Below, piece after piece: positions 3 through 63,773 of a stretch of DNA of 64,000 nt; the stretch's first letter is position 1; each line of letters begins with the position of its first letter. The notes beneath the pieces were generated by a model, which had not been told where the DNA came from, did no database searches, and saw only the letters and a list, made by a program, of their open reading frames with translations. Origin of the DNA: Lentimicrobiaceae bacterium (GTDB lineage: Bacteria > Bacteroidota > Bacteroidia > Bacteroidales > UBA4417); the NCBI GenBank assembly GCA_031550085.1, contig JAVBOY010000002.1, positions 17,946 through 81,945 on the forward strand, written 5' to 3'. The translations under genes were made by a program, and so were the position numbers.

Positions 3-1244
3 GAAAAAATCTTGGCAGGGCACGATGTATCGGCCGGAGGGTTGATCACGACCCTGCTCGAAATGTGTTTCAGCCACAACGGATTGGGCTTGCAGGTCGA
101 TCTTTCCTCATTCAACGAAAAAGACCTTATCAAGCTTCTGTTCAGCGAAAAGCCCGCCGTGGTTATCCAGGTGGATGATCTGGATTTTGTAACGGTCTTT
201 TTGAACGAACAGGGAATTGATTTTTCGGTGCTCGGAACCATTATGCCAAACGGCGAACTGAACATCCGGCAAAACGAAAAGGAATTCCGCTTCGATATTG
301 CCCGGCTGCGCGACGACTGGTTCCGCCCCTCCTACTTGCTCGACCGCAAACAAAGCGGCGAACAGAAGGCGAAAGAGCGTTTTGACAATTACGCCAAAGC
401 GGAACGCCGGTTCGATTTCCCTACAACCTTTTCGGGAACCTTTGCCCAATACGGCATCGATCCCAAACGCCGGGAAAAGACAGGCTTGCAAGCGGCTATT
501 ATCCGTGAAAAGGGTTCCAACGGCGACCGCGAAATGGCGTATGCATTATACCTTGCCGGATTCGACGTAAAAGATGTCCACATGACGGATCTGGTATCGG
601 GCAGGGAAACCTTGGACGATGTAAACTTTATTGTTTTCGTGGGTGGATTTTCGAATTCGGATGTATTGGGTTCGGCCAAAGGTTGGGCCGGCGCCTTTTT
701 ATACAACCAACAGGCGAAAGAAACATTGGAACGCTTTTATGCACGCCCCGACACACTTTCGCTGGGCGTTTGCAACGGCTGCCAATTGATGGCGGAACTG
801 GGCCTGATTTATCCCGAACACGAAGAGAAACAGCGCCTGCTCCACAACGACACGGGGAAATATGAAAGCCAATTCTTATGCATAAATATACTAGAAAGTA
901 ATTCAATTTTATTGAAATCGCTGGTCAACTCAACCCTAGGAATCTGGGTGGCACACGGGGAAGGGAAATTTAGTTTTCCTTACGAAGAAAGCCGCTACCA
1001 TATGGCTGCAAAATACACAGCCGGCTATTTCCCGGCCAATCCCAACGGTTCGATGTACAATGCCGCCGCCATCAGCTCCTTCGACGGACGCCATTTGGCC
1101 ATTATGCCGCATTTGGAGCGTTCGCTCCTGCCCTGGCATTGGGCGTATTATCCCGACTCTCGCCGCCAAGACCAGGTTTCACCCTGGATCGAAGCGTTTG
1201 TCAATGCGAGGGAGTGGGTGAATAAAGTGAAGCGTGAACAGTGA
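3..1244 (+). CDS. purL: Phosphoribosylformylglycinamidine synthase (PurL), C-terminal glutamine amidotransferase part; the 5' end lies outside the window
   Basis: The frame is open from the window edge, so the track start at 12 is a TTG artefact. Contains the class-I GATase nucleophile motif LGVCNGCQLM plus AHGEGKF and IMPHLERS, typical of the C-terminus of large single-chain PurL. Confidence 0.9.
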   Translation, partial: EKILAGHDVSAGGLITTLLEMCFSHNGLGLQVDLSSFNEKDLIKLLFSEKPAVVIQVDDLDFVTVFLNEQGIDFSVLGTIMPNGELNIRQNEKEFRFDIARLRDDWFRPSYLLDRKQSGEQKAKERFDNYAKAERRFDFPTTFSGTFAQYGIDPKRREKTGLQAAIIREKGSNGDREMAYALYLAGFDVKDVHMTDLVSGRETLDDVNFIVFVGGFSNSDVLGSAKGWAGAFLYNQQAKETLERFYARPDTLSLGVCNGCQLMAELGLIYPEHEEKQRLLHNDTGKYESQFLCINILESNSILLKSLVNSTLGIWVAHGEGKFSFPYEESRYHMAAKYTAGYFPANPNGSMYNAAAISSFDGRHLAIMPHLERSLLPWHWAYYPDSRRQDQVSPWIEAFVNAREWVNKVKREQ

Positions 1245-1312
1245 AAGGTGAAGGGTACAGGGTTAATGGTAAAGGGCACAAGGTGAAAGGTAGAGGGGAG
1301 AATGAGGTCATA
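1215..1312. repeat. Purine-rich GTGAA/GGTAAA word tract forming the left arm around the four-helix-bundle gene
   Basis: Sequence is gtgaataaagtgaagcgtgaacagtgaaaggtgaagggtacagggttaatggtaaagggcacaaggtgaaaggtagagggg. It starts inside the last ~10 codons of purL. Part of it is an imperfect reverse complement of 1722-1785. Confidence 0.6.
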
Positions 1313-1340
1313 ACAGCTATTAACAAATTAAAATCCATGT

Positions 1341-1721
1341 ATGATGGCAACGGTTAAAACGTTTGAAGATTTAGAAATTTGGAAAGAAGGCATGAGCCTT
1401 GCATGCCAGATTTATGCCATTTTCAAACAGCATAAGGATTTCGGTTTTAAAGATCAAATACAACGTGCCGCAGTTTCTATTCCTTCGAACATTGCGGAAG
1501 GATTCGAAAGAAATACAAGCAAAGAGTTTGTGCAATTTTTGTATTATGCCAAAGGCTCGTGCGGCGAGTTACGAACTCTAATTCATTTAGCCGGTTCATT
1601 AAATTATATTGAAAAACAAGATGGGGACACTTTGATAGAAGCGACAAAAGCATTGTCTTCAAAAATTTATAAATTAATTACCTACCGAAAAAACCTTACA
1701 CAAAAAAAACCGTTACAATAA
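1341..1721 (+). CDS. Four-helix-bundle protein (23S rRNA intervening-sequence protein family)
   Basis: 126-aa ORF with FEDLEIWK, QIQRAAVSIPSNIAEG and EFVQFLYYAKGSCGEL, the pattern I associate with this family. Wedged between two word-repeat arms. Confidence 0.8.
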   Translation: MMATVKTFEDLEIWKEGMSLACQIYAIFKQHKDFGFKDQIQRAAVSIPSNIAEGFERNTSKEFVQFLYYAKGSCGELRTLIHLAGSLNYIEKQDGDTLIEATKALSSKIYKLITYRKNLTQKKPLQ

Positions 1722-1785
1722 CCATTCACCGTGTACTGCTTACGTTAATACCGTTAACCTTGTACCTTTAACCGTTTACCATCCT
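1722..1785. repeat. Pyrimidine-rich word tract forming the right arm around the four-helix-bundle gene
   Basis: Sequence is ccattcaccgtgtactgcttacgttaataccgttaaccttgtacctttaaccgtttaccatcct. It runs from the stop codon at 1721 to the ATG at 1786. Its reverse complement (ggtaaacggttaaaggtacaaggttaacggt...) aligns by eye with ggtaaagggcacaaggtgaaaggt in the left arm. Confidence 0.6.
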
Positions 1786-3444: not shown

Positions 3445-3500
3445 TTCTTGTTAATGCCCTACGGGCAAATGATTGCGGTGGGATATCTTTTTTATGGATA

Positions 3501-4088
3501 TTCTTGTCCCACGGACAAGTGCAGGGTCGGTAATTCCCCGTTATAAAATGTTATATTTCCTTTTCATGTTCTTGTCCCACGAGCACCTGCAGGGTCGATA
3601 ATTCCCCGCTGTAGAAAAGATCTATTTCTCCCATAAACATGTTCCTTGTCCCATGGGAAACTGCAAGATTTATGATTCTCCGTCAGGAGAAAAACATCCA
3701 TAGAATAACAGAAAGAATAAACCGAATTGCCCGTCAGGGCATACACCGAAAATGAATCATTTCATCCATTTACAATTTAAAGCCTTGGTTGGCTGTTAGG
3801 GTCTTGTTAATGTACGGACAACAGCAGAATCGATAATTCCCCGCTATAGAAAAGATCCATTTCTCCCATAAACATGTTCTTGTCCCATGGGAAACTGCAA
3901 GATTTATGATTCTCCGTCAGGAGAAAAACATCCATAGAATAACAGAAAGAATAAACCGAATTGCCCGTCAGGGCATGCATCGAAAATGAATCATTTCATC
4001 CATTTACAATTTAAAGCCTTGGTTGGCTGGAAGGTTCTTGTTAATGTACGGACAACTGCAGGGTTGATAATTCCCCGCTATAGAAAAG
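3501..4088. repeat. Nested tandem repeat: a unit of about 235 bp in about 2.3 copies, built from six copies of a shorter CTTGT..CTGCA..ATAATTCCCCG motif
   Basis: cgataattcc occurs at 3596 and 3831, and tgataattcc at 4065, giving periods of 235 and 234. Copies 3596-3830 and 3831-4064 differ only at a handful of positions by eye. The short motif starts near 3501, 3569, 3641, 3801, 3876 and 4034. Confidence 0.85.
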
Positions 4089-36339: not shown

Positions 36340-36432
36340 TGCAAAACGTTTAAGTTTATATTCAATCTAACTCGGTTAAATCAACGGCAAAGGTAGGAAT
36401 TTGTCGGATATTTTTTTGTTTTTGGTTAAATT

Positions 36433-36995
36433 GATGGGGAAACTGGGGAAATTGGGGAAGTCGGGGAAATTGGGGCCGGAATTACGAATGAGTTTTTAGT
36501 AAACAAGTTGACGGGTAAACGAGGTTTAGTTGCAGAAAGAAGAAAGCAGCAGGCAGAAAGGATTTCATTAATTGAAAATGGAAAATTGAGAGTTGAAAAT
36601 GAATGTTTTTCAATAAACAATTCAACAACTCAACGATTCAACCAATAATGATGAATTCCGCGTCATTTCGACTGGAGCGAAATGGAGAAATCCCTTTCCT
36701 CCCATTAAATTAAGAATGAAGAATTAAAAGTGAAAATTTGAATTTTATCAATAAACAATTCTACAAACTACCCACGCTTCACAAATAAACAATTAAACAG
36801 TTCAACAATTAAACAATTAAACTGACATTTCACCCTATGCGATTAAAACAGTTTATTATTAGATTGATTTATCGTATTCAATAAAAATAAAATACCAACC
36901 ATTTCCCCGGCTTTCCCATTTTCCCCGGTTTTACCCAATTCACAACAAACAGTTCAACACTTCAACAATTAAACAGTTCAACAAATGCCCATTTC
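36433..36995 (-). repeat. Mosaic intergenic word-repeat element (copy A), in opposite orientation to copies B-D
   Basis: Shares modules with 56303-57041 as reverse complement. These are 36568-36643 (M1), 36660-36694 (M2), 36829-36865 (M4) and 36490-36567 (M5), plus GGGGAAA and GTTGAAC word tracts. Confidence 0.8.
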
Positions 36996-37000
36996 ATCGT

Positions 37001-45916: not shown

Positions 45917-46179
45917 CCAGCCTATCCCCTGTTCATTTAAATGGACTTAAGAATTTGTACGCACCAAGCCCAACAAGCTCCTGCTTCTTTGCACTTACTT
46001 ATTCTGGAAGCTTGTTTACGGTCGATATTTTGTGCTGCATTCCCCAGAATGACAATCAACGTATTCTGCAAACACCACGTTGGACGAAATCCGGAAATTC
46101 CAAAGAAGCGCTAAGGAGGCTTGGGCTTTTTTGTCTCCTTTTCAAACAGGGCAAAGACGGATTGGGGGTGTATCGACAT

Positions 46180-46364
46180 CCTCCCGGAAAAGCACCTTTT
46201 CACTTCCCGGATAAAGACCTTTTACCTTCCCGGATAAAGATCTTTTACTTTCCCGGATAAAGACCTTTTATCTTCCCGGATAAAGACCCTTTATCTTCCC
46301 GGATAAAGACCTTTTATCTTACCGGATAAAGAGCTTTTATCTTACCGGGTAAAAAGTTCTTCCT
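46180..46364. repeat. 23-bp tandem direct repeat, 8 units (consensus about CTTCCCGGATAAAGACCTTTTAT)
   Basis: TCCCGG or its variant TACCGG recurs at 46182, 46205, 46228, 46251, 46274, 46297, 46320 and 46343, an exact 23-nt period. The outer units are degenerate. Confidence 0.9.
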
Positions 46365-55460: not shown

Positions 55461-55621
55461 ATCTATTTAAACCGTCGTCTTTACAAGGGAACCGTATCTT
55501 AGAATATAATTTTAAATGAATCCCCCCGCCGCAAGCGGTCGGGGTATCAATAATGTATAAATTTATCAATGGTTCATATTCAATAGTTATATCGTTTTTT
55601 TTATTTCTTCACACATAGTAA

Positions 55622-56302
55622 CTACATAAACTCCTGCACACTGTTTACAATCTGTCCGTCGAACAAATCCACAATGCGGTGGGCATACGAAGCGTCGTGC
55701 TTGGAGTGGGTGACCATCACCACCGTTGTGCCTTCCCGGTTGAGTTCGGTGAGCAGGTTCATCACTTCAGCCCCGTTTTTCGAATCCAGATTACCGGTCG
55801 GTTCGTCGGCAAGGATCAGCTTGGGATTGGCCACCACGGCACGGGCAATGGCCACACGCTGTTGTTGCCCCCCCGAAAGTTGTTGCGGAAAATGGTTGGC
55901 GCGGTGGTTGATCGCCATCCGTTTCAACATTTCATTGACCCTATTTTTCCGTTCCGAAGTTTTAATTTTCAGGTAAATCAACGGAAGTTCCACATTTTCA
56001 AACACATTGAGTTCGTCGATGAGGTTGAAACTTTGGAATACAAACCCGATGTTGCCCTTGCGGAACAGGGTGCGGTCTTTTTCGCGGAGCGAGCCCACTT
56101 CTTTTTCCAACAGGTAATACTTGCCCGAAGTGGGATTGTCCAACAAGCCGATAATATTCAGCAAGGTGGATTTGCCACAGCCCGAAGGGCCCATCACTGC
56201 GACAAACTCGCCTTGTTTGATTTCGAGTGAAACCTGTTGAAGAGCAATGGTTTCGATTTCGTCGGTACGGAAGTGCTTGCTTAGGTTTTCAATTTTTAGC
56301 AT
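55622..56302 (-). CDS. MacB/LolD-type ABC transporter ATP-binding protein
   Basis: Walker A GPSGCGKST, signature LSGGQQQRVAIARA and Walker B ILADEPTGNLD; 226 aa. Confidence 0.9.
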   Translation of the reverse strand: MLKIENLSKHFRTDEIETIALQQVSLEIKQGEFVAVMGPSGCGKSTLLNIIGLLDNPTSGKYYLLEKEVGSLREKDRTLFRKGNIGFVFQSFNLIDELNVFENVELPLIYLKIKTSERKNRVNEMLKRMAINHRANHFPQQLSGGQQQRVAIARAVVANPKLILADEPTGNLDSKNGAEVMNLLTELNREGTTVVMVTHSKHDASYAHRIVDLFDGQIVNSVQEFM

Positions 56303-57041
56303 GATATTTTTATTTTATTGTTGAACTGTTGAGTTGTTGAATCGTTGAATTGTTATTTGTTATGTGTTTTTTGTTGGTTTGATGATTTGCTTGTTTGTGC
56401 AGGGTGAATGCCTGTTGAATTGTTGAACTGTTGAGTTGTTGTTTGTTGTTCGCTTTTTTGTTGTTTGTTTCCTCGTCACCCGTCACCTATTACCCGTCAC
56501 CCGTTACCCGTCACTCGTTAAATGCTTGGTTTTATCGAACAGGATAATTTAATCTAATAATATTCTATTTTAATCGCATAGAGGTGAAGTCGTTGTTGAA
56601 CTGTTGAATTGTTTATTGAAAAACATTCATTTTCAACACTCAATTTTCCATTTTCAATTAAAAAAACCGTTTACCCGCCATTAAAAAGTTCACTTTCAAT
56701 TTTATTCGGCTTCGCCTCATGAGATCGCTTCGCTAAGTTCAATTAACAAGCAGATTTCTCCATTTCGCTTCGCTCCATTCGAAATGACCTGTAGTTCATC
56801 GTTCATATCTCATCATTTATCGTTAAAAATCATTTTCAATTCTCCATTTTCAATTAAAACGTGTTTACTTGTTTACTGCTCCACACCCCCGCCCTTACGG
56901 GCACCCCCGCAAGCGGGGGACAGCTTTCTGCCTGCTGCTTTAAAACTCGTTAACTTGTATCTTGTCTACTCGTCAACTTGTTAACTAAAAAGCTTATTCG
57001 TAATTCGTAATTTTTAATTTTTAATTCGCAATTAAAGTCCC
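56303..57041 (+). repeat. Mosaic intergenic word-repeat element (copy B, the most complete)
   Basis: Contains GTTGAAC word tracts, a CCCGTCAC word tract (56470-56515) and modules M4 56551-56588, M1 56592-56661, M2 56740-56789 and M3 56794-56857. Also GC hairpins at 56891-56919, M5 at 56923-56990 and TTCGTAAT words at 56996-57030. It fills the whole 739-bp gap between two cistrons. Confidence 0.85.
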
Positions 57042-59354
57042 CTATTGCCGCAACGCTAAAATGGGATTGGCCCGGGTGGCTTTGTAACTTTGCCAGAACA
57101 CCGCAATCAGCGCAAACAAAAAGGCAACGCCTCCTGCCAAAGCAAAAATGCTCCAATGCAGCGAAACATGATAGGCATATCCTTTGAGCCATTCGCTCAT
57201 GGCATACCAGATAATGGGAACCGCAACCACAAATGCAACGGCCACCATTTTCAGGAAACTGAAAATCAACTTTTGTAACATTTCGCGGTTGGTGGAACCG
57301 AACACCTTGCGGACGGCAATTTCCGAAGCCCGCTGGCGCATGTAATAGGTTGCCATTGCCAGCATGCCCAAAGCCGATATCAAAATGGCAATCAGTGAAA
57401 AAGAGCCGATAATTTTATAAGTACGCTCCTGATCGTTGTACCAGCTGTTAAGTTCTTCATCGATAAAGCCGCTGCCAAACGGGATACCGCCGCTAGATTC
57501 CAAATAAGTCTCTTTTATGTTGCGGAAGGTTTCCGCCTGGTTTGCCCCGGAAATTTTCACCAGAATGGTCCAAACGCCGGTCTGCCAAACTCCTTGTTTT
57601 CCAATCAGTAAGGGGCCGATCTGTTGCGACAAATCGCGGAAATGGAAATCTTTGATCATTCCGGCAATGGATACCGGAAAATTATCTCCAAAATTAAAGC
57701 GCGTAGCCGTATCGGGCAGTCCCAGTTCCTTAACAGCCGCCTCGTTCAGCCAAAGCGCCCTTTTCTCTTTAATGCCTGTTTCATGCAGTGTTTGGATGTG
57801 AAACATTTTAAAGAATACGGAATCGACCACAAACATTTGAAAGCTGATGGGAGCACGGTCTTTGTAGCTAACCGTTTGATTATTTCCCCCGTCAATGGGC
57901 GTGCCGGCGGTAAACGAAACCATTTCTACTCCTTTCACCCGCATTAGTTGATCGCGAAAAGCGCTAAGCGTCGAGCTTTTGTAAATCACATTATCCAGGT
58001 AAACGATGTTCTCTTTATCGAAACCCAAATTCGTGGTCCGCATAAAATGCGTCTGGTAGATAATGGTCAGGGTGCAGCCCAGCAAAACAATGGTGATGCA
58101 GTATTGAAATGCAATAAGGATGCGGCTGTAAACCATTTTGGTTTTCCGGGTAAATTCGCCGCGCACCACTTCCACCGGCTTGTGCCGCGAAATCACAGTG
58201 GCGGGCAAAAGTCCCGAAACAATGCCCAACAGCAGGACAAAAAGTGCCGCCAATGCCAGGTTGATTGCCGTCAGATTTTCCGCCACACTGCCGGACGAAC
58301 CGAGCAAGCGGTTGAAAAGCGGTTCGGCCATCGCCGCCAACGCCACAGCAATAACAAAAGTGCCGGCGCAAAACAGCACGGATTCGGAAATAAAGCCGGC
58401 AAACAACCCGCCCCGCGAACTGCCCAGCAAGCGGCGGGTAGCAGCCTCCTTGGCACGAAAACCCGATTGCGCCACCGAAAGGTTCACATAGTTGATCACC
58501 GCAAAAAGCAGGATGACCCACATGGAACCCATCAAAATCCAAATAAACCGGTGGCTGTTCGAGCGGAGAAAATCCGGCGTATGATCTGTTAAGAAATAAC
58601 AATCCTGTATGGGTACCAAGCCAATGCTCGTAGCTGCACCAGTTTGGTAAAGCCAAAAGTAGGTTTTGAAATGGGTAAGCAAATCAGGCATTTTCGCTTG
58701 AAAATTGCTGCCTTTGGCAGTACGCAGGTAAATCAGGAAATTACAGGATCCATATTCATTCAAATACCAGGGGCCTACATACTCGAACCGGACAATGAGG
58801 TCGGGATTTTTAAAATGGGTGTTTTTAAAATCTTCCACCACGCCGGTTACGGTACAGGCTACGGTGTCGATCATTACGGTTTTTCCCAAAGCCGGTTGGC
58901 TGCCGAACAACTTGACGGCAAACGATTTTGTCAACACCACCTCTTGTACGGTTTGCAGTTGCTGCCTGGGATTTCCTTCTACAAAAGGAAACGAAAAAAT
59001 ATCGAAAAACGTGGAATCCACGGCCAGCGATTGCGCTTTGATTTTTTCTTCGCCCTGTTTGATTACCAGCGAAGGCGCTCCGGCCCGGGTGATGGCTTCC
59101 ACTTCGGGATAGCGATTTTTAACATCCGCAGCAATGGGAGCTGAAAAGCGGCCGCCGCTACGCGAATGGCTTGTCAATCGGAATACACGTTCCTTGTCTT
59201 TGTGGAAACCGTCGACACTTCGTTCGTTTTTGACGTAGATGCCCAACAGGATGACCACCATCAGCGAAACGGAAAATCCGAACAAATTGATTGCGGTGTA
59301 AAGCTTGTTTCGTCCCAGAAATGTGAAATACGATTTTAATTTAAAGCTGTTCAT
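57042..59354 (-). CDS. FtsX/MacB-type ABC transporter permease with large periplasmic domains (duplicated 4-TM architecture)
   Basis: 770 aa with two FtsX-like TM bundles separated by MacB_PCD-like extracytoplasmic regions. Confidence 0.85.
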   Translation of the reverse strand: MNSFKLKSYFTFLGRNKLYTAINLFGFSVSLMVVILLGIYVKNERSVDGFHKDKERVFRLTSHSRSGGRFSAPIAADVKNRYPEVEAITRAGAPSLVIKQGEEKIKAQSLAVDSTFFDIFSFPFVEGNPRQQLQTVQEVVLTKSFAVKLFGSQPALGKTVMIDTVACTVTGVVEDFKNTHFKNPDLIVRFEYVGPWYLNEYGSCNFLIYLRTAKGSNFQAKMPDLLTHFKTYFWLYQTGAATSIGLVPIQDCYFLTDHTPDFLRSNSHRFIWILMGSMWVILLFAVINYVNLSVAQSGFRAKEAATRRLLGSSRGGLFAGFISESVLFCAGTFVIAVALAAMAEPLFNRLLGSSGSVAENLTAINLALAALFVLLLGIVSGLLPATVISRHKPVEVVRGEFTRKTKMVYSRILIAFQYCITIVLLGCTLTIIYQTHFMRTTNLGFDKENIVYLDNVIYKSSTLSAFRDQLMRVKGVEMVSFTAGTPIDGGNNQTVSYKDRAPISFQMFVVDSVFFKMFHIQTLHETGIKEKRALWLNEAAVKELGLPDTATRFNFGDNFPVSIAGMIKDFHFRDLSQQIGPLLIGKQGVWQTGVWTILVKISGANQAETFRNIKETYLESSGGIPFGSGFIDEELNSWYNDQERTYKIIGSFSLIAILISALGMLAMATYYMRQRASEIAVRKVFGSTNREMLQKLIFSFLKMVAVAFVVAVPIIWYAMSEWLKGYAYHVSLHWSIFALAGGVAFLFALIAVFWQSYKATRANPILALRQ

Positions 59355-59676
59355 GTTTAGTTGAGGTGTTGAGTTGTTGAGTTGTTGAATCGTTGAACTG
59401 TTTAATTAGTGAAGCGTGAATGCCTGTTTAATTGTTTAACTGTTTAATTGTTGAGTTGTTGAATTAGTGAAGTGTGAACGGTGAGTTGTTTGTTGAACTG
59501 TTGAATCGTTGAGTTGTTGAATTGTTTATTGAAAAACATTCATTTTCAACGCTCAATTTTCAATTAACAAGCAGATTTCTCCATTTCGCTTCGCTCCAGT
59601 CGAAATGACCCGGAATTCATCCTTCATCATTATTTGTAATTTTTAATTCTTCATTTTTAATTCGTAATTTTTAATA
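59355..59676 (+). repeat. Mosaic intergenic word-repeat element (copy C)
   Basis: Contains GTTGAGTTGTTGAA and GTGAAGCGTGAATGCCTG word tracts, M1 at 59500-59567, M2 at 59561-59610 and TTCGTAATTTTTAAT words. It fills the whole 322-bp gap. Confidence 0.85.
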
Positions 59677-62019
59677 CTATTCTGCTTTCAAGCTTTTCAC
59701 CGGGTTTTCGTTTGCCATGCGGCGGGTTTTCAGGAAAACCACGGCAAAAACAATCGCCAGCACGGCCAATCCGCCGCACACGAAAATCCAAAGGCTCAGG
59801 GAAATTTTATACGCAAATTGCGAAAGCCAATGTTCGCCCATAAAGTAAGCCAGCGTACTTCCGATAACTACTGCCAGCAAAGCAATAACCTGAATATCTG
59901 TTGAAATTATTTTTAAAACATCCCATTTCCCGGCGCCATTTACTTTACGGATGGCGATTTCGCGGCGGCGGCGGCCGATTTCATAGCCCAGATAACCGAT
60001 CAGGCCCGAAAGCGAGATCACCAGAATAACAAGGGAAATAATAAGCACCGCATTACGCATCATTTTTTCGGATTCATAATTCAACATAAGCGTTTCCTTG
60101 TAACTGCTCACGGTCACATCGTTTTCAGGAATCAACTTGGCAAGTTTGGTATTTATTTTTGTGATAATTTCGGGCGAAATATCCGTTGTTTTGATCAAAA
60201 ATTTCAGATAATAATACATATTATCCGAATCTCCCGCAATTGGATGGATAACAATAGGCTCCAGTTCTTTGTGCAAAGATGTGAGCATAAAATTTTTAAC
60301 AACTCCCACAATTCTTATCGGTTTTCCTCCTTGTGAAGGATCTGTCAAAATCAGCTTCCCTACAGAATTATCCTTCCAGTGCATGAGTTCTACGTACTCT
60401 TGGTTGACAATGGCGCAGTCCCAACCCATATCAGGCGCAAAATTGCTTCCCTCCGCCATTTGCATTTCGAGCAAGGGAATGCAGCGGCTGTCCATTTGGG
60501 TTGTCCGGCAAACAAAAAGTACTTCTTTGGTTTCTAAATCGTAAGCAGGATTTCCGCTCAAGCCGTAAGTATATAAATCGCTCACAATTGATACATCTTT
60601 TACTTCGGGCAATGTGAGTAGTTCCTGAACTAAGGCTTTACAATCCTTTTTATTTTCGAAACGTGTTTGAAAATAAAGAACATTCTCATAGCTGTAGCCA
60701 ATATTTTTGGTTATAAACATATGATACTGGAGACCAAAAATTATTAGAATTACCACCACAAACGTAACCGCCACAAATTGAAAAAACAGCATGGTACGCT
60801 TCCACCAGCGCCTGTTGCTTGCCGATGTCCGAAATGCTGCTGTAACCGGAACCATAGCAAATATACGTGCCGGAATCATGGCGGCAACAATGAAAAATGC
60901 GGATATAACCAAAATCAAAAAGGTAAGTCGTTGTGGAGTGAAAAGCGTAAGTAGCGATTCATTGGTAAACTGTTCGATTTGCTTTGAAAAAGCCAGTAAC
61001 CAGCCCAAAGACAGCAGCAGCGAAATAAAAATATATACAGCAGTTTCGGTCAGCAGCATCCCGAAAATTGCTTTTTGCCCGGCTCCGTTGCATTTGTGAA
61101 CGCCAATAATTTTTGCCCTTTCGGAAAGCGACGACAAGGTGATCAAAATAAAATTGACAGCCGTAATAAACAAAATGATTGACGCCAATACACCCAAAAT
61201 CGTATTTACCAGTTTTGTCTCTGTATCTCCTAAATGTATTTGGGTTAAAGGAACAAAAAAGTATTCCAATTTATACATTTCCAAAATGGATTCGGCTTTG
61301 TGGTTTTTAAAAAGTTGTGGGATTTGTGCAATAACAGAATCAGGATTTATGCCCTCTTTGAGCTTAGCGTATGTATAAAACGAATCGCCACCATTCCAGC
61401 TATCACCCAAGTTGAATTCGCTGATATACGAAAACGGCAGCACCATATCGATTCGGAAATCCGAATTGCGCGGAACTTCGCGAAATACACCTGTAATTAC
61501 CAATGGAAATGTTTTATTGTAAAAAAGTATTTTTCCAATGGGATCCTGCTCTTTAAAAATACGCCTGGCAAAAGCGTTGGAAATAAAAACGCCGTTTTTT
61601 CCGCTTAACCCTGTTTTGGGATCGCCTCTCAAAACACCAAAATCCAACACATCGAAAAGTACAGAATCTCCCACAATCGCCCGGAGTTTAAAAAGATTAT
61701 CTTCATAATAACAATCTAAATTTCCATGATCGAAATAGCGCGTAGCTTTCTCCACCCCGGGTATTTCATTCATCATTGCCGGAGCAATGGGTCCCAGCAT
61801 CATTTGCCCTTCATGCGGTTTTTTATCCATGTAATCAATGCAACGCAGCTGGTAAATCCGTTCCTTGTTGGGAATGAAATTATTATACGAAAGATGAAAG
61901 GTGACCATGGCAAAAATGATCAATCCAAAAGCCAACCCCAAACTCAACGAGACAATTTTTACAAAGTTGTTCCACCGGAGTTTAAATACATTGCGGAAAG
62001 CGTACGAGAGGGATTTCAT
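59677..62019 (-). CDS. FtsX/MacB-type ABC transporter permease, paralogue of 57042-59354
   Basis: 780 aa with the same architecture as the downstream permease. Confidence 0.85.
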   Translation of the reverse strand: MKSLSYAFRNVFKLRWNNFVKIVSLSLGLAFGLIIFAMVTFHLSYNNFIPNKERIYQLRCIDYMDKKPHEGQMMLGPIAPAMMNEIPGVEKATRYFDHGNLDCYYEDNLFKLRAIVGDSVLFDVLDFGVLRGDPKTGLSGKNGVFISNAFARRIFKEQDPIGKILFYNKTFPLVITGVFREVPRNSDFRIDMVLPFSYISEFNLGDSWNGGDSFYTYAKLKEGINPDSVIAQIPQLFKNHKAESILEMYKLEYFFVPLTQIHLGDTETKLVNTILGVLASIILFITAVNFILITLSSLSERAKIIGVHKCNGAGQKAIFGMLLTETAVYIFISLLLSLGWLLAFSKQIEQFTNESLLTLFTPQRLTFLILVISAFFIVAAMIPARIFAMVPVTAAFRTSASNRRWWKRTMLFFQFVAVTFVVVILIIFGLQYHMFITKNIGYSYENVLYFQTRFENKKDCKALVQELLTLPEVKDVSIVSDLYTYGLSGNPAYDLETKEVLFVCRTTQMDSRCIPLLEMQMAEGSNFAPDMGWDCAIVNQEYVELMHWKDNSVGKLILTDPSQGGKPIRIVGVVKNFMLTSLHKELEPIVIHPIAGDSDNMYYYLKFLIKTTDISPEIITKINTKLAKLIPENDVTVSSYKETLMLNYESEKMMRNAVLIISLVILVISLSGLIGYLGYEIGRRRREIAIRKVNGAGKWDVLKIISTDIQVIALLAVVIGSTLAYFMGEHWLSQFAYKISLSLWIFVCGGLAVLAIVFAVVFLKTRRMANENPVKSLKAE

Positions 62020-62264
62020 GTTAGTGTTGAATCGTTGAACTGTTGAATTGTATGTTTGTGAAGGGTGAACCGTGAAGCGTGAAAGGGTTTGGGGTGAAAT
62101 GCCTGTTTAATTGTTTATTTGTGAAGCGTGAGTAGTTTGTTGAATTGTTTATTGGAAAAAGCCCTTTTTCAATTCTCAACTTTCCATTTTCAATTAAAAA
62201 GTTCATCGTTCATATCTCATCATTTATCGTTAAAAAATCATTTTCAATTTTCCATTTTCAACTT
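62020..62264 (+). repeat. Mosaic intergenic word-repeat element (copy D)
   Basis: Contains GTTGAA words, GTGAAGGGTGAACCGTGAAGCGTGAAAGGG words, a diverged M1 at 62135-62197 and M3 at 62201-62262. It fills the whole 245-bp gap. Confidence 0.85.
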
Positions 62265-63518
62265 TCAATTCTTTAAAATCAACGTCTCATTCTCTCCAAA
62301 CGTTTCGTAGCTGGAGGTAACCACTTTTTCGCCGGGATTCAGGCCTTCCAGCACTTCATAGTATTGCGGATTCTGACGTCCGATGGTAATTTTCCGTTTG
62401 TGGGCACGCGTTCCGTCTTCCGAGACTACAAAAATCCAACTGCCTCCGGTAGCTTGATAAAAGGCCCCGCGTGGAATCAGCAGCGCGTCGGTCGGTTGTC
62501 CCAATTCCAGATTGATGTAATAGGTTTGCCCGATGCGGATGTTGTCGGGACGTTTTCCGGTAAACACAAAGTCTGTTTTGAAATTTCCATCCCTTACTTC
62601 GGGATATACTTTGCGCACCAGCAAACCGAAGTTTTGCCCCTGCCGCTCAAACGTGGCGTTCAACCCCGTACGCACCCGGTCGATGTAATGCTCGTCGATG
62701 GACGTTTGAATTTTAAAACCGGATAAATCGCTGATTTGCCCGATCGATTGTCCCATCGCCACCGATTGCCCCAGCACCACATTTAGCAGCCCCAGTTCCC
62801 CGTCGATGGGCGATTTTACACTTAAATTCTCGACCCGTTCCCGGATCAGTACCATGTTGCGCTTCATATTGTCCAGGCTTTCTTCCATTTGCGTTACCTG
62901 AATACTGCGGTAAATGGAATCCTGTTTTTGGCGTTCGGCGACCAGTTTGCGTTTGCGGTCGGCAAGTTCCCAATCTTCTTTCGATTGCAAATAATCTTCC
63001 TGGGTAATGTGGCGCTCCTTATATAATTCCTCGTTTTGGCGGAACTTCCGTTCTTTGCGGGTGACGTCCAAATCCAGTTGCAGACGTTCCTGACGCAGGT
63101 TCAGACGCTCCTGCTCCATGGTAACCAGGGTATTGCGCAAGAAATTTTGCTTTTCGGCCAATTGGGCTTCACTTTCGAGAATGGAAAGGTTCAGCGAGGG
63201 ATTGCTGAGCATCACGATGATATCGCCCTTTTTGACGGTAGAACCTTCTTCCACGACGAGTTTTTCCACAATGCCGCCTTCGAGCGGGCTGAGCTGAACG
63301 GTCGAAATGGGTTGAACCTGGCCATTGACCCGGGCGTAATCGTTAAATTGTCCTTTGGTAACTTCACTGATCATGATCGAGCGGCCATCGGCTCGGTAAC
63401 TGGACGAATGGTCGCCCAAGAGCCGCCACAAGACGACAGCAAGCAATAAAGCCCCCCCAATAAGGTAGGGAATGTGTTTGCGTTTCAATCCTTTTTTCTT
63501 TTCAAGAGCAATGTCCAT
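62265..63518 (-). CDS. Efflux transporter periplasmic adaptor (HlyD/MFP family)
   Basis: 417 aa with an N-terminal TM, a lipoyl-like GGIVEKLVVEEGSTVKKGDIIV, a long coiled coil and a beta-barrel C-terminal region. Confidence 0.88.
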   Translation of the reverse strand: MDIALEKKKGLKRKHIPYLIGGALLLAVVLWRLLGDHSSSYRADGRSIMISEVTKGQFNDYARVNGQVQPISTVQLSPLEGGIVEKLVVEEGSTVKKGDIIVMLSNPSLNLSILESEAQLAEKQNFLRNTLVTMEQERLNLRQERLQLDLDVTRKERKFRQNEELYKERHITQEDYLQSKEDWELADRKRKLVAERQKQDSIYRSIQVTQMEESLDNMKRNMVLIRERVENLSVKSPIDGELGLLNVVLGQSVAMGQSIGQISDLSGFKIQTSIDEHYIDRVRTGLNATFERQGQNFGLLVRKVYPEVRDGNFKTDFVFTGKRPDNIRIGQTYYINLELGQPTDALLIPRGAFYQATGGSWIFVVSEDGTRAHKRKITIGRQNPQYYEVLEGLNPGEKVVTSSYETFGENETLILKN

Positions 63519-63773
63519 GGTTCACATTGATTATTGGTAAAATCCTGTTTCAGGAACCTCAGACACCCGGCGTTTTTTAGGCAGGCTTTTGACATGATGA
63601 AACAAATAGGCTTAAACGCCGGGCTCTCCTGAGATTTTTTACTGCACAAAAAGATATTCTAACTTTTCTGTACCAAAATTACGTTTGAGCGTCCCGGAAT
63701 GATACAAGTTTTATTGAATTTGCTTATCTTCAATCGATTACAAAATTATCCGGTTGTCTATTTTTTTGACACA

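What the first reader, a model, noticed from the sequence alone, without database searches (positions are those of the whole stretch)
56303..57041. 739-bp mosaic word-repeat element filling the gap between two cistrons of an efflux operon
The spacer between the permease stop (57042) and the ATPase start (56302) has no plausible ORF. It is built from tracts of reiterated short words: GTTGAACTGTTGAGTTGTTGAATCGTTGAATTG, CACCCGTCACCTATTACCCGTCACCCGTTACCCGTCAC and TTCGTAATTCGTAATTTTTAATTTTTAATTCG. These are interleaved with unique conserved modules (M1-M5) that recur in the other three spacers: 59355-59676, 62020-62264 and 36340-37000 (inverted). The copies are mosaics: the same modules appear in different combinations and orders. 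I recognise the general flavour, and spurious ORFs reading ..SPFRFAPFEMT.. are common in Bacteroidota annotations. I cannot name a described family or function. Candidate roles are decayed non-autonomous mobile elements, RNA processing or stability elements that set differential expression within the operon, or empty flanks of four-helix-bundle gene cassettes.
Basis: partly seen in the sequence, partly recalled or inferred. Interest (0 to 1): 0.6.

Follow-up and report, generated by a model that had tools for sequence, protein, structure and literature searches.

The report
Polar mosaic repeat filling operon spacer
The 739-base gap inside this transporter operon is non-coding filler made of short repeats that also fill at least 120 other gene gaps in this genome, nearly always pointing the way the genes are read; it is a lineage-specific variant of known bacterial intergenic repeats, and no function has been shown for it.

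Summary
Window 56303-57041 has no credible gene. It is built from tandem 7-8-nt word arrays plus short unique modules, and these recur in the three other spacers named. Every 20-nt bin of it matches 12-156 other places in this 3.19-Mb genome.

It is one copy of a genome-wide family. About 200 intergenic regions (10%) carry at least 60 nt of repeat-masked sequence (some from unrelated repeats), and 119-141 carry this family by stricter criteria. The family has a fixed polarity:
- C-poor AATTGAA-type arrays start just after the upstream stop codon.
- Hairpin or box modules sit in the middle.
- G-poor TTCAACAN/TTCACNN arrays run up to the next start codon.

Between co-oriented genes, 76 of 94 copies point with transcription (p=1e-9), independent of GC skew. 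The elements carry no Bacteroidota -7 promoter motif, no terminator and no stable global fold. The tail makes the downstream initiation region unusually unstructured.

The same word families form the inverted arms around all six four-helix-bundle (PF05635) genes of this genome. This spacer, however, has no such gene, no gene remnant and no inverted arms. Relatives' equivalent operons have 0-134-nt spacers, and 44 congeners lack these words.

Best reading: co-transcribed, largely selfish or neutral mosaic filler, filtered for compatibility with operon expression. It is a new variant of BIME/STRR-like repeats. RNA data could not be obtained.

The parts
56303..57041 (-). Whole intercistronic spacer, from the permease stop (TAG at 57044-57042) to the ATPase start (ATG at 56302). 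It consists of two polar units read on the minus (sense) strand: unit A about 57033-56516 and unit B 56515-56303.
   Evidence: Named arrays and modules cover 666 of the 739 nt.
56996..57033 (-). Head array wK: AATTAMR heptamers, starting about 8 nt after the permease stop codon.
   Evidence: ATTCGTA x5.4. The same words follow the stop codon in spacer 59632-59675.
56923..56991 (-). Modules Ma (GTTRACRA words, 56946-56991) and Mb (AGCAGCAGGCAGAAAG, 56923-56945).
   Evidence: Ma has 16 genomic copies. Ma and Mb are shared with 36479-36560 on the opposite strand.
56878..56922 (-). Module Mc: two adjacent G+C-rich hairpins (CCCCCGC-TT-GCGGGGG and GCCC-GTAA-GGGC).
   Evidence: 20 near-identical genomic copies. 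(both stems paired in 87-100% of copies, no covariation). The folds show the hairpins.
56794..56859 (-). Head array wG1 (AATTGAA-type heptamers, 56830-56855) and module Md (ACGATAAATGATGAG..., 56794-56829).
   Evidence: The segment is 97% identical to 62200-62261.
56738..56791 (-). Module Me: GTCATTTCGA-loop-CGAAATGGAGAAATC hairpin box. Its antisense translation gives ISPFRFAPFEMT.
   Evidence: 41 copies. (30 copies at <=3 mismatches here, 28 in one genome of another family, 0 in 149 others)..
56688..56736 (-). Module Mf: TTAGCGAAGCGATCTCATGAGGCGAAGCCGAAT core (two GCGAAGC motifs around the palindrome CTCATGAG).
   Evidence: 24 copies. (20 copies here, 1-3 in 8 of 44 congeners). (in relatives the core sits in a hairpin whose stem changes compensate).
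56591..56665 (-). Junction of head array wG2 (56624-56659), the A+T hairpin Mg (56602-56637) and the first octamer tail array w8a (56591-56611).
   Evidence: 98% identical to 36568-36627 and to 59515-59561. A local hairpin appears in the folds.
56516..56586 (-). Module Mh: A+T-rich box with core TGCGATTAAAATAG.ATATTATTAGATTAAATTATC.
   Evidence: 115 genomic copies. (no consensus structure). (core columns >=90% conserved, mean pairwise identity 76%). (no exact match in JGI metagenome contigs).
56471..56515 (-). Array wD: GTRACGG heptamers, a C-poor head-type array that opens unit B.
   Evidence: CGTCACC x6.4 on the plus strand. It is rare in the genome (2 arrays).
56303..56470 (-). G-poor tail (A 55%, C 26%, G 5%, T 14%). 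It holds A/C-rich runs, octamer arrays w8b (56411-56435) and w8c (56318-56352), and box Mi (56389-56422). It ends 15 nt before the ATPase ATG.
   Evidence: It is predicted unpaired. An independent short-read contig reproduces its last 45 nt.
59355..59676 (-). Second spacer of the operon, with the same family and polarity: wK, Me, wG, Mg, then w8/wC arrays running to the ATG.
62020..62270 (-). Third spacer of the operon: wG, Md, wG, an Mg variant, then w8/wC arrays. The adaptor gene's TGA stop (62267-62265) lies inside the first heptamer array.
   Evidence: (array 62240-62270).
36340..37000 (+). Fourth copy, antisense to its two minus-strand flanking genes. It also has GGGGAAANN arrays as 87%-complementary inverted arms (36440-36470 and 36901-36931) with no gene between them.
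   Evidence: (I1).
1224..1785 (+). Four-helix-bundle (PF05635) gene at 1341-1721. It is flanked by GTGAAGN-type words upstream and by TTCACC/TTTACC/TTAACC words downstream (the word family of the tail arrays). This is the gene-bearing counterpart of the family.
   Evidence: E=2e-34.

Best explanation
The 739-nt spacer is non-coding intercistronic DNA that is most likely transcribed as part of the adaptor-permease-permease-ATPase mRNA. It arose by accretion of lineage-specific small repeats. It is one copy (two tandem units) of a genome-wide, transcription-polar mosaic family.

Each unit has three parts:
- a C-poor 'head' of AATTGAA/AATTACG/GTTRACRA/GTRACGG word arrays placed just after the upstream stop codon
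- a middle of REP-like hairpin or box modules (Mc, Md, Me, Mf, Mh)
- a G-poor 'tail' of TTCAACAN and TTCACNN arrays that runs up to the next start codon

The word arrays are of the same kind, and have the same 5'/3' polarity, as the inverted arms that enclose the genome's six four-helix-bundle (23S-rRNA-IVS-protein family) genes. They probably share an origin or a generating process with those cassettes. Here, however, they occur as unpaired, gene-less stacks.

The element is best seen as selfish or near-neutral filler that survives only in a form compatible with operon expression:
- It brings no promoter and no terminator.
- It forms no stable long hairpin.
- Its tail gives the downstream cistron an extremely unstructured, A/C-rich initiation region. 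Shine-Dalgarno-independent Bacteroidota ribosomes favour such regions.

Its practical effect is to uncouple translation of the ATPase from the permease while still allowing, and perhaps favouring, independent initiation.

Shown: the anatomy, copy number, polarity, orientation bias, absence of promoter/terminator/fold signals, low-structure initiation regions, the link of the words to the four-helix-bundle gene arms, and lineage specificity.
Inferred: co-transcription, the selective filter, the translational effect, and the common origin with the cassettes.
For: Copy number:
- The spacer gave 726 HSPs against its own genome.
- 15-mers repeated at least 5 times cover 2.4% of the genome, about 90% of that outside my called genes.
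- About 200 intergenic regions (IGRs) carry at least 60 nt of this repeat-masked sequence, which also includes unrelated repeat families. 141 carry at least 150 nt. Their median length is 467 nt, against 81 nt for IGRs without repeats.

Fixed order and strand purity:
- All 119 IGRs with a majority orientation among at least 2 arrays are strand-pure; 7 further IGRs were ties.
- Head arrays sit at median relative position 0.16; tail arrays at 0.72-0.74.
- The first head array starts a median 9 nt after the stop codon.
- The last tail array ends within 20 nt of the start codon in 31 of 89 cases.

Orientation:
- 76 sense versus 18 antisense between co-oriented genes, p=1.2e-9. The ratio is the same on both GC-skew strands (39/46 and 37/48).
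- Unique modules give 80:18.

No promoter or terminator:
- The Bacteroidota -7 motif TAnnTTTG occurs at 0.61/kb in repeat IGRs, 4.85/kb in divergent promoter regions and 0.39/kb in coding sequence.
- The three operon spacers have none in the sense direction; two lie upstream of the adaptor gene.
- Sigma-70-like and terminator-like sites are at shuffle level, and none of the terminator-like sites lies in a spacer.

No global structure: z = -0.61, -1.56 and +1.0 for the three sense spacers, with the tail predicted unpaired.

Tail effect:
- The -40..+30 initiation regions of 41 tail-adjacent genes fold at a median -2.2 kcal/mol, against -5.7 for 1524 other genes (p=1.5e-13).
- The last 168 nt of this spacer are 5% G.
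- Bacteroidota initiation is tuned by mRNA structure and upstream A residues rather than by Shine-Dalgarno pairing (PMC6847099).

Link to the cassettes:
- 6 of 6 PF05635 genes are flanked by inverted arms made of word arrays, including the w8, w9 and wG families and words like wC, Md and Ma. The C-poor arm is upstream and the G-poor arm downstream in 6 of 6.
- 5 of 6 are sense-oriented between co-oriented genes.
- Arm 11-mers of the w8 and wG cassettes occur 34-79 times in the genome (median), against 1.5 expected.
- 11 of 11 PF05635 genes sampled from 11 congeners also have inverted word-array arms.

Lineage specificity and insertion:
- Equivalent operons in three relatives have 0-134-nt spacers.
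- The octamer pattern has 223 hits here, at most 7 in each of 44 congeners, and is rare across 200 genomes of the order. Other genomes carry other words.
Against: - No transcript data.
- The low folding energy of tail-adjacent initiation regions follows almost automatically from G depletion. It shows compatibility, not benefit.
- 'Neutral filler plus filter' does not by itself explain why head-type and tail-type families never appear in the opposite form within a sense copy (100% strand purity). It also does not explain why box Mh keeps a core that is at least 90% conserved over 115 copies. Both could indicate a sequence-specific function or a directional generating mechanism.
- Antisense copies are not significantly enriched for a downstream promoter motif (6/18 versus 14/76, p=0.20), so the proposed selective filter is not demonstrated.
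- My gene map is a crude ORF/codon-usage caller, so IGR counts are approximate.
- The internal order of the 739 nt rests on one draft assembly.
Confidence: 0.6

Rival explanations
1. Emptied cassette(s). The spacer is what remains of one or more four-helix-bundle (PF05635) gene cassettes of the rRNA-intervening-sequence type that once sat between the permease and ATPase genes. The gene and one arm of each were later lost, leaving stacked 5'-type and 3'-type arms.
For: - The word families and the C-poor-upstream / G-poor-downstream polarity are those of the six cassettes.
- Cassettes occupy the same kind of site, between co-oriented genes and filling the gap from stop to start. They show the same sense bias (5/6 against 76/94).
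- Two gene-less loci do keep inverted arms: window 36440-36470/36901-36931 and C28:8436-8763.
- Gene-plus-arms is general in the genus (11/11).
Against: - No PF05635 remnant exists anywhere outside the six intact genes, even at tblastn E<=10.
- No inverted repeat of at least 14 nt lies in 56250-57100.
- Only about 2-3 of at least 120 gene-less copies have paired arms.
- In sense copies the AATTGAA family occurs only as the head form and the TTCAAC family only as the tail form. Random decay of complete hairpins would not leave that pattern.
- Six genes against at least 120 orphan loci is a large imbalance.
Confidence: 0.15
2. Functional RNA element. The transcribed spacer is a processing or stability platform. 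Hairpins Mc, Me and Mg would act as RNase or exonuclease barriers, and the C-rich, G-poor tail as a Rho loading or 30S standby site. Together they would set different expression levels for the adaptor, the permeases and the ATPase.
For: - Strong co-orientation with transcription that is independent of GC skew.
- Hairpin modules whose sequence is conserved.
- The G+C-rich hairpin Mc lies near the 5' end of unit A of this spacer (56878-56922), about 120 nt after the upstream stop. REP hairpins that stabilise upstream mRNA in E. coli sit in a comparable place (background: PMC3479197, PMC3184786).
- The tail is unstructured and has C far above G.
- In the Me variant of another family, a G-U-compatible change keeps the stem.
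Against: - No fold is more stable than shuffles, and box Mh has no consensus structure.
- No covariation is seen; the copies are too alike.
- The words are absent from 44 congeners and the equivalent operons work with 0-134-nt spacers. Any function is therefore recent and dispensable.
- The same elements sit in convergent and divergent gaps (15 and 10 IGRs).
Confidence: 0.15
3. Classical non-autonomous transposon (MITE) or REP/RAYT system. On this reading the modules are ends or palindromes moved by a transposase encoded elsewhere in the genome.
For: - Module Me has a patchy distribution: 30 copies here, 28 in one genome of a different family and none in 149 others. In that other genome it occurs as inverted doublets with GTCATTTCGA...TCGAAATGAC termini, like a REPIN or MITE.
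- Seven Y1-transposase (PF01797) hits exist in the genome.
- Copies of Mc, Me and Mf are nearly identical.
Against: - The spacer has no terminal inverted repeats.
- The Y1 transposase genes are flanked by other, unrelated palindromes. Only one merely adjoins a mosaic copy, on one side.
- There is no reverse transcriptase and no match to plasmids or phages.
- Whole elements are not shared between loci; only modules of 17-115 nt are.
- Orientation follows genes, not GC skew, which is unlike lagging-strand-targeting HUH elements.
Confidence: 0.05
4. Degraded protein-coding gene, or an assembly artefact.
For: - A 99-aa stop-free frame exists on the antisense strand.
- The genome is a draft, and short-read contigs break in the repeat.
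Against: - None of the ten open frames from the spacer that were scanned has a Pfam match.
- The 99-aa frame has no homologue.
- The frame is made of repeat modules found at more than 20 other loci.
- The tail-ATPase junction is reproduced in an independent assembly.
- More than 100 loci share the same ordered architecture, which misassembly would not produce.
Confidence: 0.04

Closest known systems
Bacterial interspersed mosaic elements (BIMEs) and REP sequences of enterobacteria and pseudomonads (PMC3116915, PMC3184786, PMC3479197)
   Same: - Extragenic, often intra-operon.
- High copy number.
- Built as mosaics of a few short motifs, including small G+C-rich hairpins.
- Transcribed with the flanking genes.
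- Lineage-specific.
   Different: - There are no alternating inverted palindromes. Most of the mass is tandem 7-8-nt word arrays, not palindromes.
- The whole element is strictly polar and strand-pure.
- No link to a RAYT-type Y1 transposase was found.
- Copies span the entire gap from stop codon to start codon.
STRR heptanucleotide repeats of heterocystous cyanobacteria and the TAACTGA direct repeats of Beggiatoaceae, Cyanobacteria and a few Bacteroidetes (PMC4679880)
   Same: - Short tandem arrays of 7-nt units in intergenic regions.
- Sporadic phylogenetic distribution.
- Many arrays lie in forward orientation within a few nucleotides of a start codon, which prompted a proposal of translational or post-transcriptional action.
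   Different: - Here several word families (7, 8 and 9 nt) are combined in a fixed head-to-tail order with unique modules.
- The dominant unit is an octamer.
- The words are not TAACTGA.
- About 10% of all gene gaps are affected.
ORF-bearing intervening sequences of 23S rRNA (Coxiella burnetii, Leptospira) that carry an S23p/PF05635 gene in a long stem cut by RNase III (PMC4990558)
   Same: - In this genome and 11 congeners, genes of the same protein family lie between inverted arms made of tandem short words.
- Those word families are the ones that build the spacer.
   Different: - The spacer has no PF05635 gene, no complementary arms and no stable stem.
- It lies in an mRNA, not in rRNA.
- RNase III cutting is untested.
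Modular BOX elements of Streptococcus pneumoniae and other small modular repeats (reviewed in PMC2229807)
   Same: Modular composition (boxA-boxB(n)-boxC) with a variable number of internal units, located between genes.
   Different: - BOX elements fold into stable structures and have defined ends.
- There is no sequence similarity and a different phylum.
- This comparison rests on my own knowledge of BOX plus the cited review and was not tested here.

Membership tests
REP/BIME (RAYT-associated palindromes) | Short imperfect palindromes in high copy number, often as inverted pairs | tested here: inconclusive
   Mc, Me and Mg are small hairpins present in 20-41 copies. They occur singly and in one orientation, not as inverted pairs.
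REP/BIME (RAYT-associated palindromes) | A cognate Y1 (RAYT) transposase gene flanked by the same palindromes | tested here: not met
   There are seven PF01797 hits. Their flanks carry other repeats, and only one merely adjoins a mosaic copy on one side.
MITE | Terminal inverted repeats and target-site duplication bounding a unit of defined length | tested here: not met
   No inverted repeat of at least 14 nt lies in 56250-57100. Copies share only modules of 17-115 nt, not whole units. Target duplications could not be assessed without empty sites.
STRR / dispersed short tandem word arrays | Tandem arrays of 7-nt (here 7-9-nt) units, intergenic and dispersed over the genome | tested here: met
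   (arrays in all four spacers). (212 + 158 + 158 arrays, 2-6% of them inside genes). (223 pattern hits against 0 for the reversed control).
TAACTGA-type start-codon-proximal repeats (PMC4679880) | Forward-oriented arrays ending within a few nucleotides of the start codon | tested here: met
   Array w8c ends 15 nt before the ATPase ATG. Genome-wide, 31 of 89 last tail arrays end within 20 nt of a start codon. The unit sequence differs from TAACTGA.
IVS-type four-helix-bundle cassette | A PF05635 ORF inside the element | tested here: not met
   The spacer has no Pfam hit in any frame. tblastn with the six paralogues finds no remnant.
IVS-type four-helix-bundle cassette | Complementary inverted arms forming a long stem | tested here: not met
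   Searches find no arms. The fold z-score is -0.61. The feature is met at 36440-36470/36901-36931 (87% complementary), but with no gene inside.
IVS-type four-helix-bundle cassette | Arms composed of tandem short words shared with the element | tested here: met
Known structured RNA (Rfam) | A match at the family gathering score | tested here: not met
   No match in the whole window. Only chance-level matches (E>=1) appear in 55500-63600.
Internal promoter or intrinsic terminator | A Bacteroidota -7 TAnnTTTG motif, or a G+C hairpin followed by a T-run | tested here: not met

The most novel reading that the evidence does not exclude
The word arrays may not be debris. They could be an address code read by the four-helix-bundle (PF05635, Avd-like) proteins. 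Each of the six paralogues is enclosed by arms of a different word family. Those same families, stacked in a fixed polarity, occupy at least 120 (by the loosest count about 200) transcribed gene junctions. The pentameric proteins would bind their cognate arrays, as RNA or as single-stranded DNA, and so maintain, spread or post-transcriptionally regulate these junctions. On this reading the 739-nt spacer is a multi-site regulatory platform inside an efflux operon. It would also give a function to a protein family that has had none for 30 years.
Probability: 0.07. Interest if true: 0.85.

Novelty: new variant of a known kind. Interest (0 to 1): 0.5.

Why it matters
If the reading is right, the case shows three things:
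- A Bacteroidota genome can tolerate hundreds of bases of repeat insertion inside working operons, at roughly one gene junction in fifteen to one in ten. The inserts must be promoter-less, terminator-less and unstructured, and must present a G-poor leader to the next cistron.
- That gives a natural data set for what Shine-Dalgarno-independent ribosomes need upstream of a start codon.
- It ties unexplained short tandem 'word' repeats to the arms of four-helix-bundle gene cassettes, a possible common origin for heptamer-type repeats in several phyla.

Practical consequences: these elements break short-read assemblies, and their antisense strands contain long stop-free frames that could be miscalled as ORFs.

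Tried and rejected
- Rfam at gathering score (whole window) and at E-value threshold (55500-63600): nothing relevant.
- Degraded gene: Pfam on ORFs and stop-to-stop frames, tblastn with the six PF05635 paralogues, and a 5.8-billion-protein search with the 99-aa frame were all negative.
- RAYT/REP link: the Y1 transposase genes carry other palindromes.
- Retro-mobilisation: the genome has no RVT_1.
- A group II intron next to an Mf copy in one relative did not generalise: 1 of 12 loci.
- Long hairpin or IVS-like stem: fold z-scores are not significant, and inverted arms are rare among gene-less copies. A first attempt with database-wide blastn missed known arms, and an earlier one timed out.
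- Replication-strand explanation of the orientation bias: no relation to local GC skew. Skew is itself a weak proxy in a 60-contig draft.
- Internal promoters or terminators: none.
- Test that antisense copies sit at operon boundaries: the trend points the expected way but is not significant.
- Orthologous operons in close relatives:
  - The best permease match in GTDB species representatives is 40% identical.
  - No relative was found in JGI metagenome contigs, and box Mh had no exact match there.
  - The exact-protein lookup found only two contigs, which end in the repeat.
- Plasmid and phage collections: no match.
Full report
**What is there**

The minus strand of window 55622-63518 carries four genes:
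- a HlyD-type adaptor (62265-63518)
- two FtsX/MacB-type permeases (59677-62019 and 57042-59354)
- an ABC ATPase (55622-56302)

The gaps between them are 245, 322 and 739 nt.

Tandem Repeats Finder reports period-8 and period-7 arrays there and in the other spacers. No frame in it matches Pfam. The longest stop-free frame is 99 aa, antisense, and includes ISPFRFAPFEMT. It has no homologue in the large protein collection. Segments of 17-69 nt are shared at 85-98% identity with 59355-59676 and 62020-62264 on the same strand, and with 36340-37000 on the opposite strand.

**It is one copy of a genome-wide family**

The window is C28:17946-81945 of a 3.19-Mb, 60-contig draft with 43% G+C.
- blastn of the spacer against this genome gave 726 HSPs. 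Every 20-nt bin was hit 12-156 times.
- 15-mers present at least 5 times cover 77.7 kb (2.4%), about 90% of it outside my called genes.
- I built a crude gene map of 2304 genes. With it, about 200 intergenic regions, roughly 10% in each orientation class, hold at least 60 nt of this repeat-masked sequence. That mask also includes unrelated repeat families, so it is an upper bound for the mosaic family. 141 regions hold at least 150 nt, and 119 plus 7 ties hold at least two word arrays.
- Regions with repeats have a median length of 467 nt, against 81 nt without.
- nhmmer finds 115 copies of box Mh, 41 of Me, 24 of Mf, 20 of Mc and 16 of Ma.

**The mosaic is ordered and polar**

I annotated the 60 most repeat-rich gaps among the 141 with at least 150 repeat-masked nt. 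In all those with recognisable modules, the modules lie on one strand and in a recurring order:
1. [AATTACG words]
2. AATTGAA-type heptamers
3. the middle modules Ma, Mb, Mc, Md, Me and Mf
4. AATTGAA heptamers again
5. an A+T hairpin
6. TTCAACAN octamers and TTCACNN heptamers, with box Mh among them

Supporting counts:
- All 119 gaps with a majority orientation among at least two arrays are 100% strand-pure. Seven further gaps were ties.
- In sense-oriented gaps the head arrays sit at median relative position 0.16 and the tail arrays at 0.72-0.74.
- The first head array starts a median 9 nt after the stop codon.
- The last tail array ends a median 37 nt before the start codon, and within 20 nt in 31 of 89 cases.
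- In the adaptor gene the TGA stop itself lies inside the first heptamer array.

The 739-nt spacer reads as two such units: A (about 57033-56516) and B (56515-56303). Named parts cover 666 of its 739 nt.

**Orientation follows transcription**

Between co-oriented genes, 76 gaps are sense and 18 antisense (binomial p=1.2e-9). The ratio is the same whether the genes lie on the G-rich or the C-rich strand (39/46 and 37/48). Element strand agrees with local GC skew in only 66 of 119 cases. Counting unique modules gives 80:18. Counting arrays gives 133:29, 80:29 and 94:21. The copy at 36340-37000 is one of the 18 antisense cases.

**What the element does not contain**

- Promoters. The Bacteroidota -7 promoter motif TAnnTTTG occurs at 4.85/kb upstream of divergent genes. 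It occurs at only 0.61/kb on the gene-sense strand of repeat gaps, close to the coding background of 0.39/kb. The three operon spacers have none in the sense direction, while two lie upstream of the adaptor gene.
- Terminators. Sigma-70-like and terminator-like sites are at shuffle expectation, and none of the terminator-like sites falls in a spacer.
- Structure. Whole-spacer RNA folds are no more stable than dinucleotide shuffles: z = -0.61 (sense) and +0.72 (antisense) for the 739-nt spacer, and -1.56 and +1.0 for the other two. The tail is predicted unpaired.
- Covariation. Within-genome alignments give no consensus structure for Mh and invariant small hairpins for Mc, Me and Mf.
- Known families. 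Rfam has no match, and there is no similarity to plasmids or phages.

**What the tail does to the next gene**

The last 168 nt before the ATPase ATG are A 55%, C 26%, G 5% and T 14%. The last 120 nt of the other two spacers have 5-7% G.

Across the genome, the -40..+30 regions of 41 genes with a tail array within 25 nt fold at a median -2.2 kcal/mol. The figure for 1524 other genes is -5.7 (Mann-Whitney p=1.5e-13).

Bacteroidota ribosomes ignore Shine-Dalgarno sequences, and initiation is tuned by mRNA structure and upstream A residues (PMC6847099). The tail is therefore at least compatible with, and may favour, independent initiation on a long untranslated spacer. This is an inference. The low energy follows largely from G depletion.

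**Link to four-helix-bundle gene cassettes**

The genome has six PF05635 (23S-rRNA intervening-sequence protein) genes. One lies in the window at 1341-1721.
- Each is flanked by inverted arms built from tandem words: TGTTGAAN/NTTCAACA, AATTGAA and its complement, GGGGAAANN and its complement, GTGAAGN with TTCACC/TTTACC, ACGATGA-type words, and GTAAACTAG-type words.
- In all six the C-poor arm is upstream and the G-poor arm downstream of the gene.
- Five of six lie in sense between co-oriented genes and fill the gap.
- Arm 11-mers of the octamer and AATTGAA cassettes occur 34-79 times in the genome (median), against 1.5 expected.
- In 11 of 11 PF05635 genes sampled from 11 congeners, the flanks again hold inverted word arrays of other sequence, scoring above 30 shuffles each.
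- All 45 genomes of the genus have 4-19 such genes.

This architecture resembles the S23p-bearing intervening sequence of Coxiella 23S rRNA, which RNase III excises (PMC4990558). Earlier notes of this scan describe the same gene-plus-arms layout in many phyla. I treated them as leads and re-tested the layout only for this genus.

The spacer itself has no PF05635 remnant and no inverted arms. Only two or three gene-less loci in the genome keep paired arms.

**Other mobility candidates**

- Seven Y1-transposase hits are flanked by different palindromes.
- There is no reverse transcriptase.
- Module Me has a patchy distribution: 30 copies here, 28 in one 2.1-Mb genome of another family and none in 149 others. 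In that other genome it forms inverted doublets with GTCATTTCGA...TCGAAATGAC termini.
- The Mf core has 20 copies here and 1-3 in 8 of 44 congeners. In relatives it lies in a hairpin whose stem varies by compensating changes.

The middle modules thus look like captured pieces of REP- or MITE-like elements with their own histories.

**Lineage specificity**

- Equivalent adaptor/ATPase/permease operons in three relatives have spacers of 0-134 nt. One of these holds unrelated small palindromes.
- The octamer-array pattern has 223 hits here. It has at most 7 in each of 44 congeners and more than 10 in only about six of 200 genomes across the order. Some other genomes are rich in arrays of other words, seen as hits to the reversed control pattern.
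- No closer relative of the permease was found in GTDB representatives or JGI metagenome contigs. Box Mh has no exact match in the metagenome contigs.
- Two short-read contigs that encode the identical ATPase end 45 nt upstream of the ATG, inside the tail array, and match the window there.

**Interpretation**

The best-supported reading (0.6) is that the spacer is co-transcribed, non-coding, lineage-specific repeat accretion. It is a polar mosaic related in its word arrays to four-helix-bundle cassette arms and in its middle modules to REP-like elements. It persists because, in this orientation and composition, it does not interrupt operon expression.

Rivals:
- emptied cassettes (0.15)
- a functional processing, stability or Rho platform (0.15)
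- MITE/REP-RAYT (0.05)
- degraded gene or misassembly (0.04)

What remains unexplained:
- the absolute strand purity of head-type and tail-type families
- the conserved core of box Mh over 115 copies
- the mechanism that spreads or homogenises the modules

**Limits**

- No transcript or read data were available.
- The gene map is crude.
- GC skew is a weak replication proxy in a fragmented draft.
- The test that antisense copies sit at transcription-unit boundaries was not significant (6/18 against 14/76, p=0.20).

Noticed in passing
window 1224-1785: A four-helix-bundle (PF05635) gene at 1341-1721 is wedged between two plus-strand genes. GTGAAGN-type words lie upstream and TTCACC/TTTACC/TTAACC words downstream, forming imperfect inverted arms.
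   Followed up: yes
window 36440-36470 and 36901-36931: GGGGAAANN arrays form 31-nt, 87%-complementary inverted arms 430 nt apart. There is no gene between them, only other mosaic modules. This is one of the few gene-less hairpin-armed copies in the genome.
   Followed up: partly
window 62265-62270: The TGA stop codon of the HlyD-type adaptor gene lies inside the first AATTGAA heptamer array. The repeat therefore supplies, or has overwritten, the end of the gene.
   Followed up: partly
window 3595-4088: A 234-nt unit is repeated 2.1 times at 95% identity in a gene-free gap. It also scores as repeated 15-mers (3454-3976). It is unrelated in sequence to the mosaic family.
   Followed up: no
window 46178-46353: A 23-nt unit (ATCTTCCCGGATAAAGACCTTTT) is repeated 7.7 times at 88% identity. 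It lies in the convergent gap just downstream of the 2196-aa Por_Secre_tail (T9SS-type) gene.
   Followed up: no
own genome C60:21747-22208 and C51:2961-3425 (outside the window): Y1-transposase (RAYT-like) genes are flanked by their own palindromic repeat families. One family is a 46-nt unit repeated in tandem at least six times. These families are distinct from the mosaic family.
   Followed up: partly
L015, L017, L019, L023 (congeners), around position 1500: The Mf core (CTTAGCGAAGCGATCTCATGAGGCGAAGCCGAAT) sits in the loop of a hairpin. The 5-6-bp stem differs between species by compensating changes: CTGATT/AATCAG, CGGATT/AATCCG and CCGGTT/AACCGG. Rfam has no match for it.
   Followed up: partly
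L016 = L052 (G033:C163), 1195-1540: One Mf copy lies about 130 nt downstream of the end of the group II intron D1-D4 match (Rfam RF02001, 124 bits; the match ends at 1367-1370 and Mf starts at 1501). None of the other 11 Mf loci examined has an intron.
   Followed up: yes
L043 and L045 (G160, another family of the order): Module Me occurs 28 times in this 2.1-Mb genome, as the left end of about 100-130-nt inverted-repeat elements (GTCATTTCGA...TCGAAATGAC). It is absent from 149 other sampled genomes. The pattern suggests horizontal spread.
   Followed up: partly
L026 and L027 (Logan contigs), position 1: Independent short-read assemblies that carry the identical ATPase gene stop 45 nt upstream of its start, inside the octamer array. 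The repeat family breaks short-read assemblies.
   Followed up: yes
L029 (G020:C61), permease-permease spacers: A relative's equivalent permease array carries its own small palindromes in 60-134-nt spacers (CCGTAAGGGCGACCCTTGTGGTCGTC and AGACGATGTGCACATCGTCTCT). Intercistronic repeat insertion in these operons is therefore not unique to this genome.
   Followed up: no
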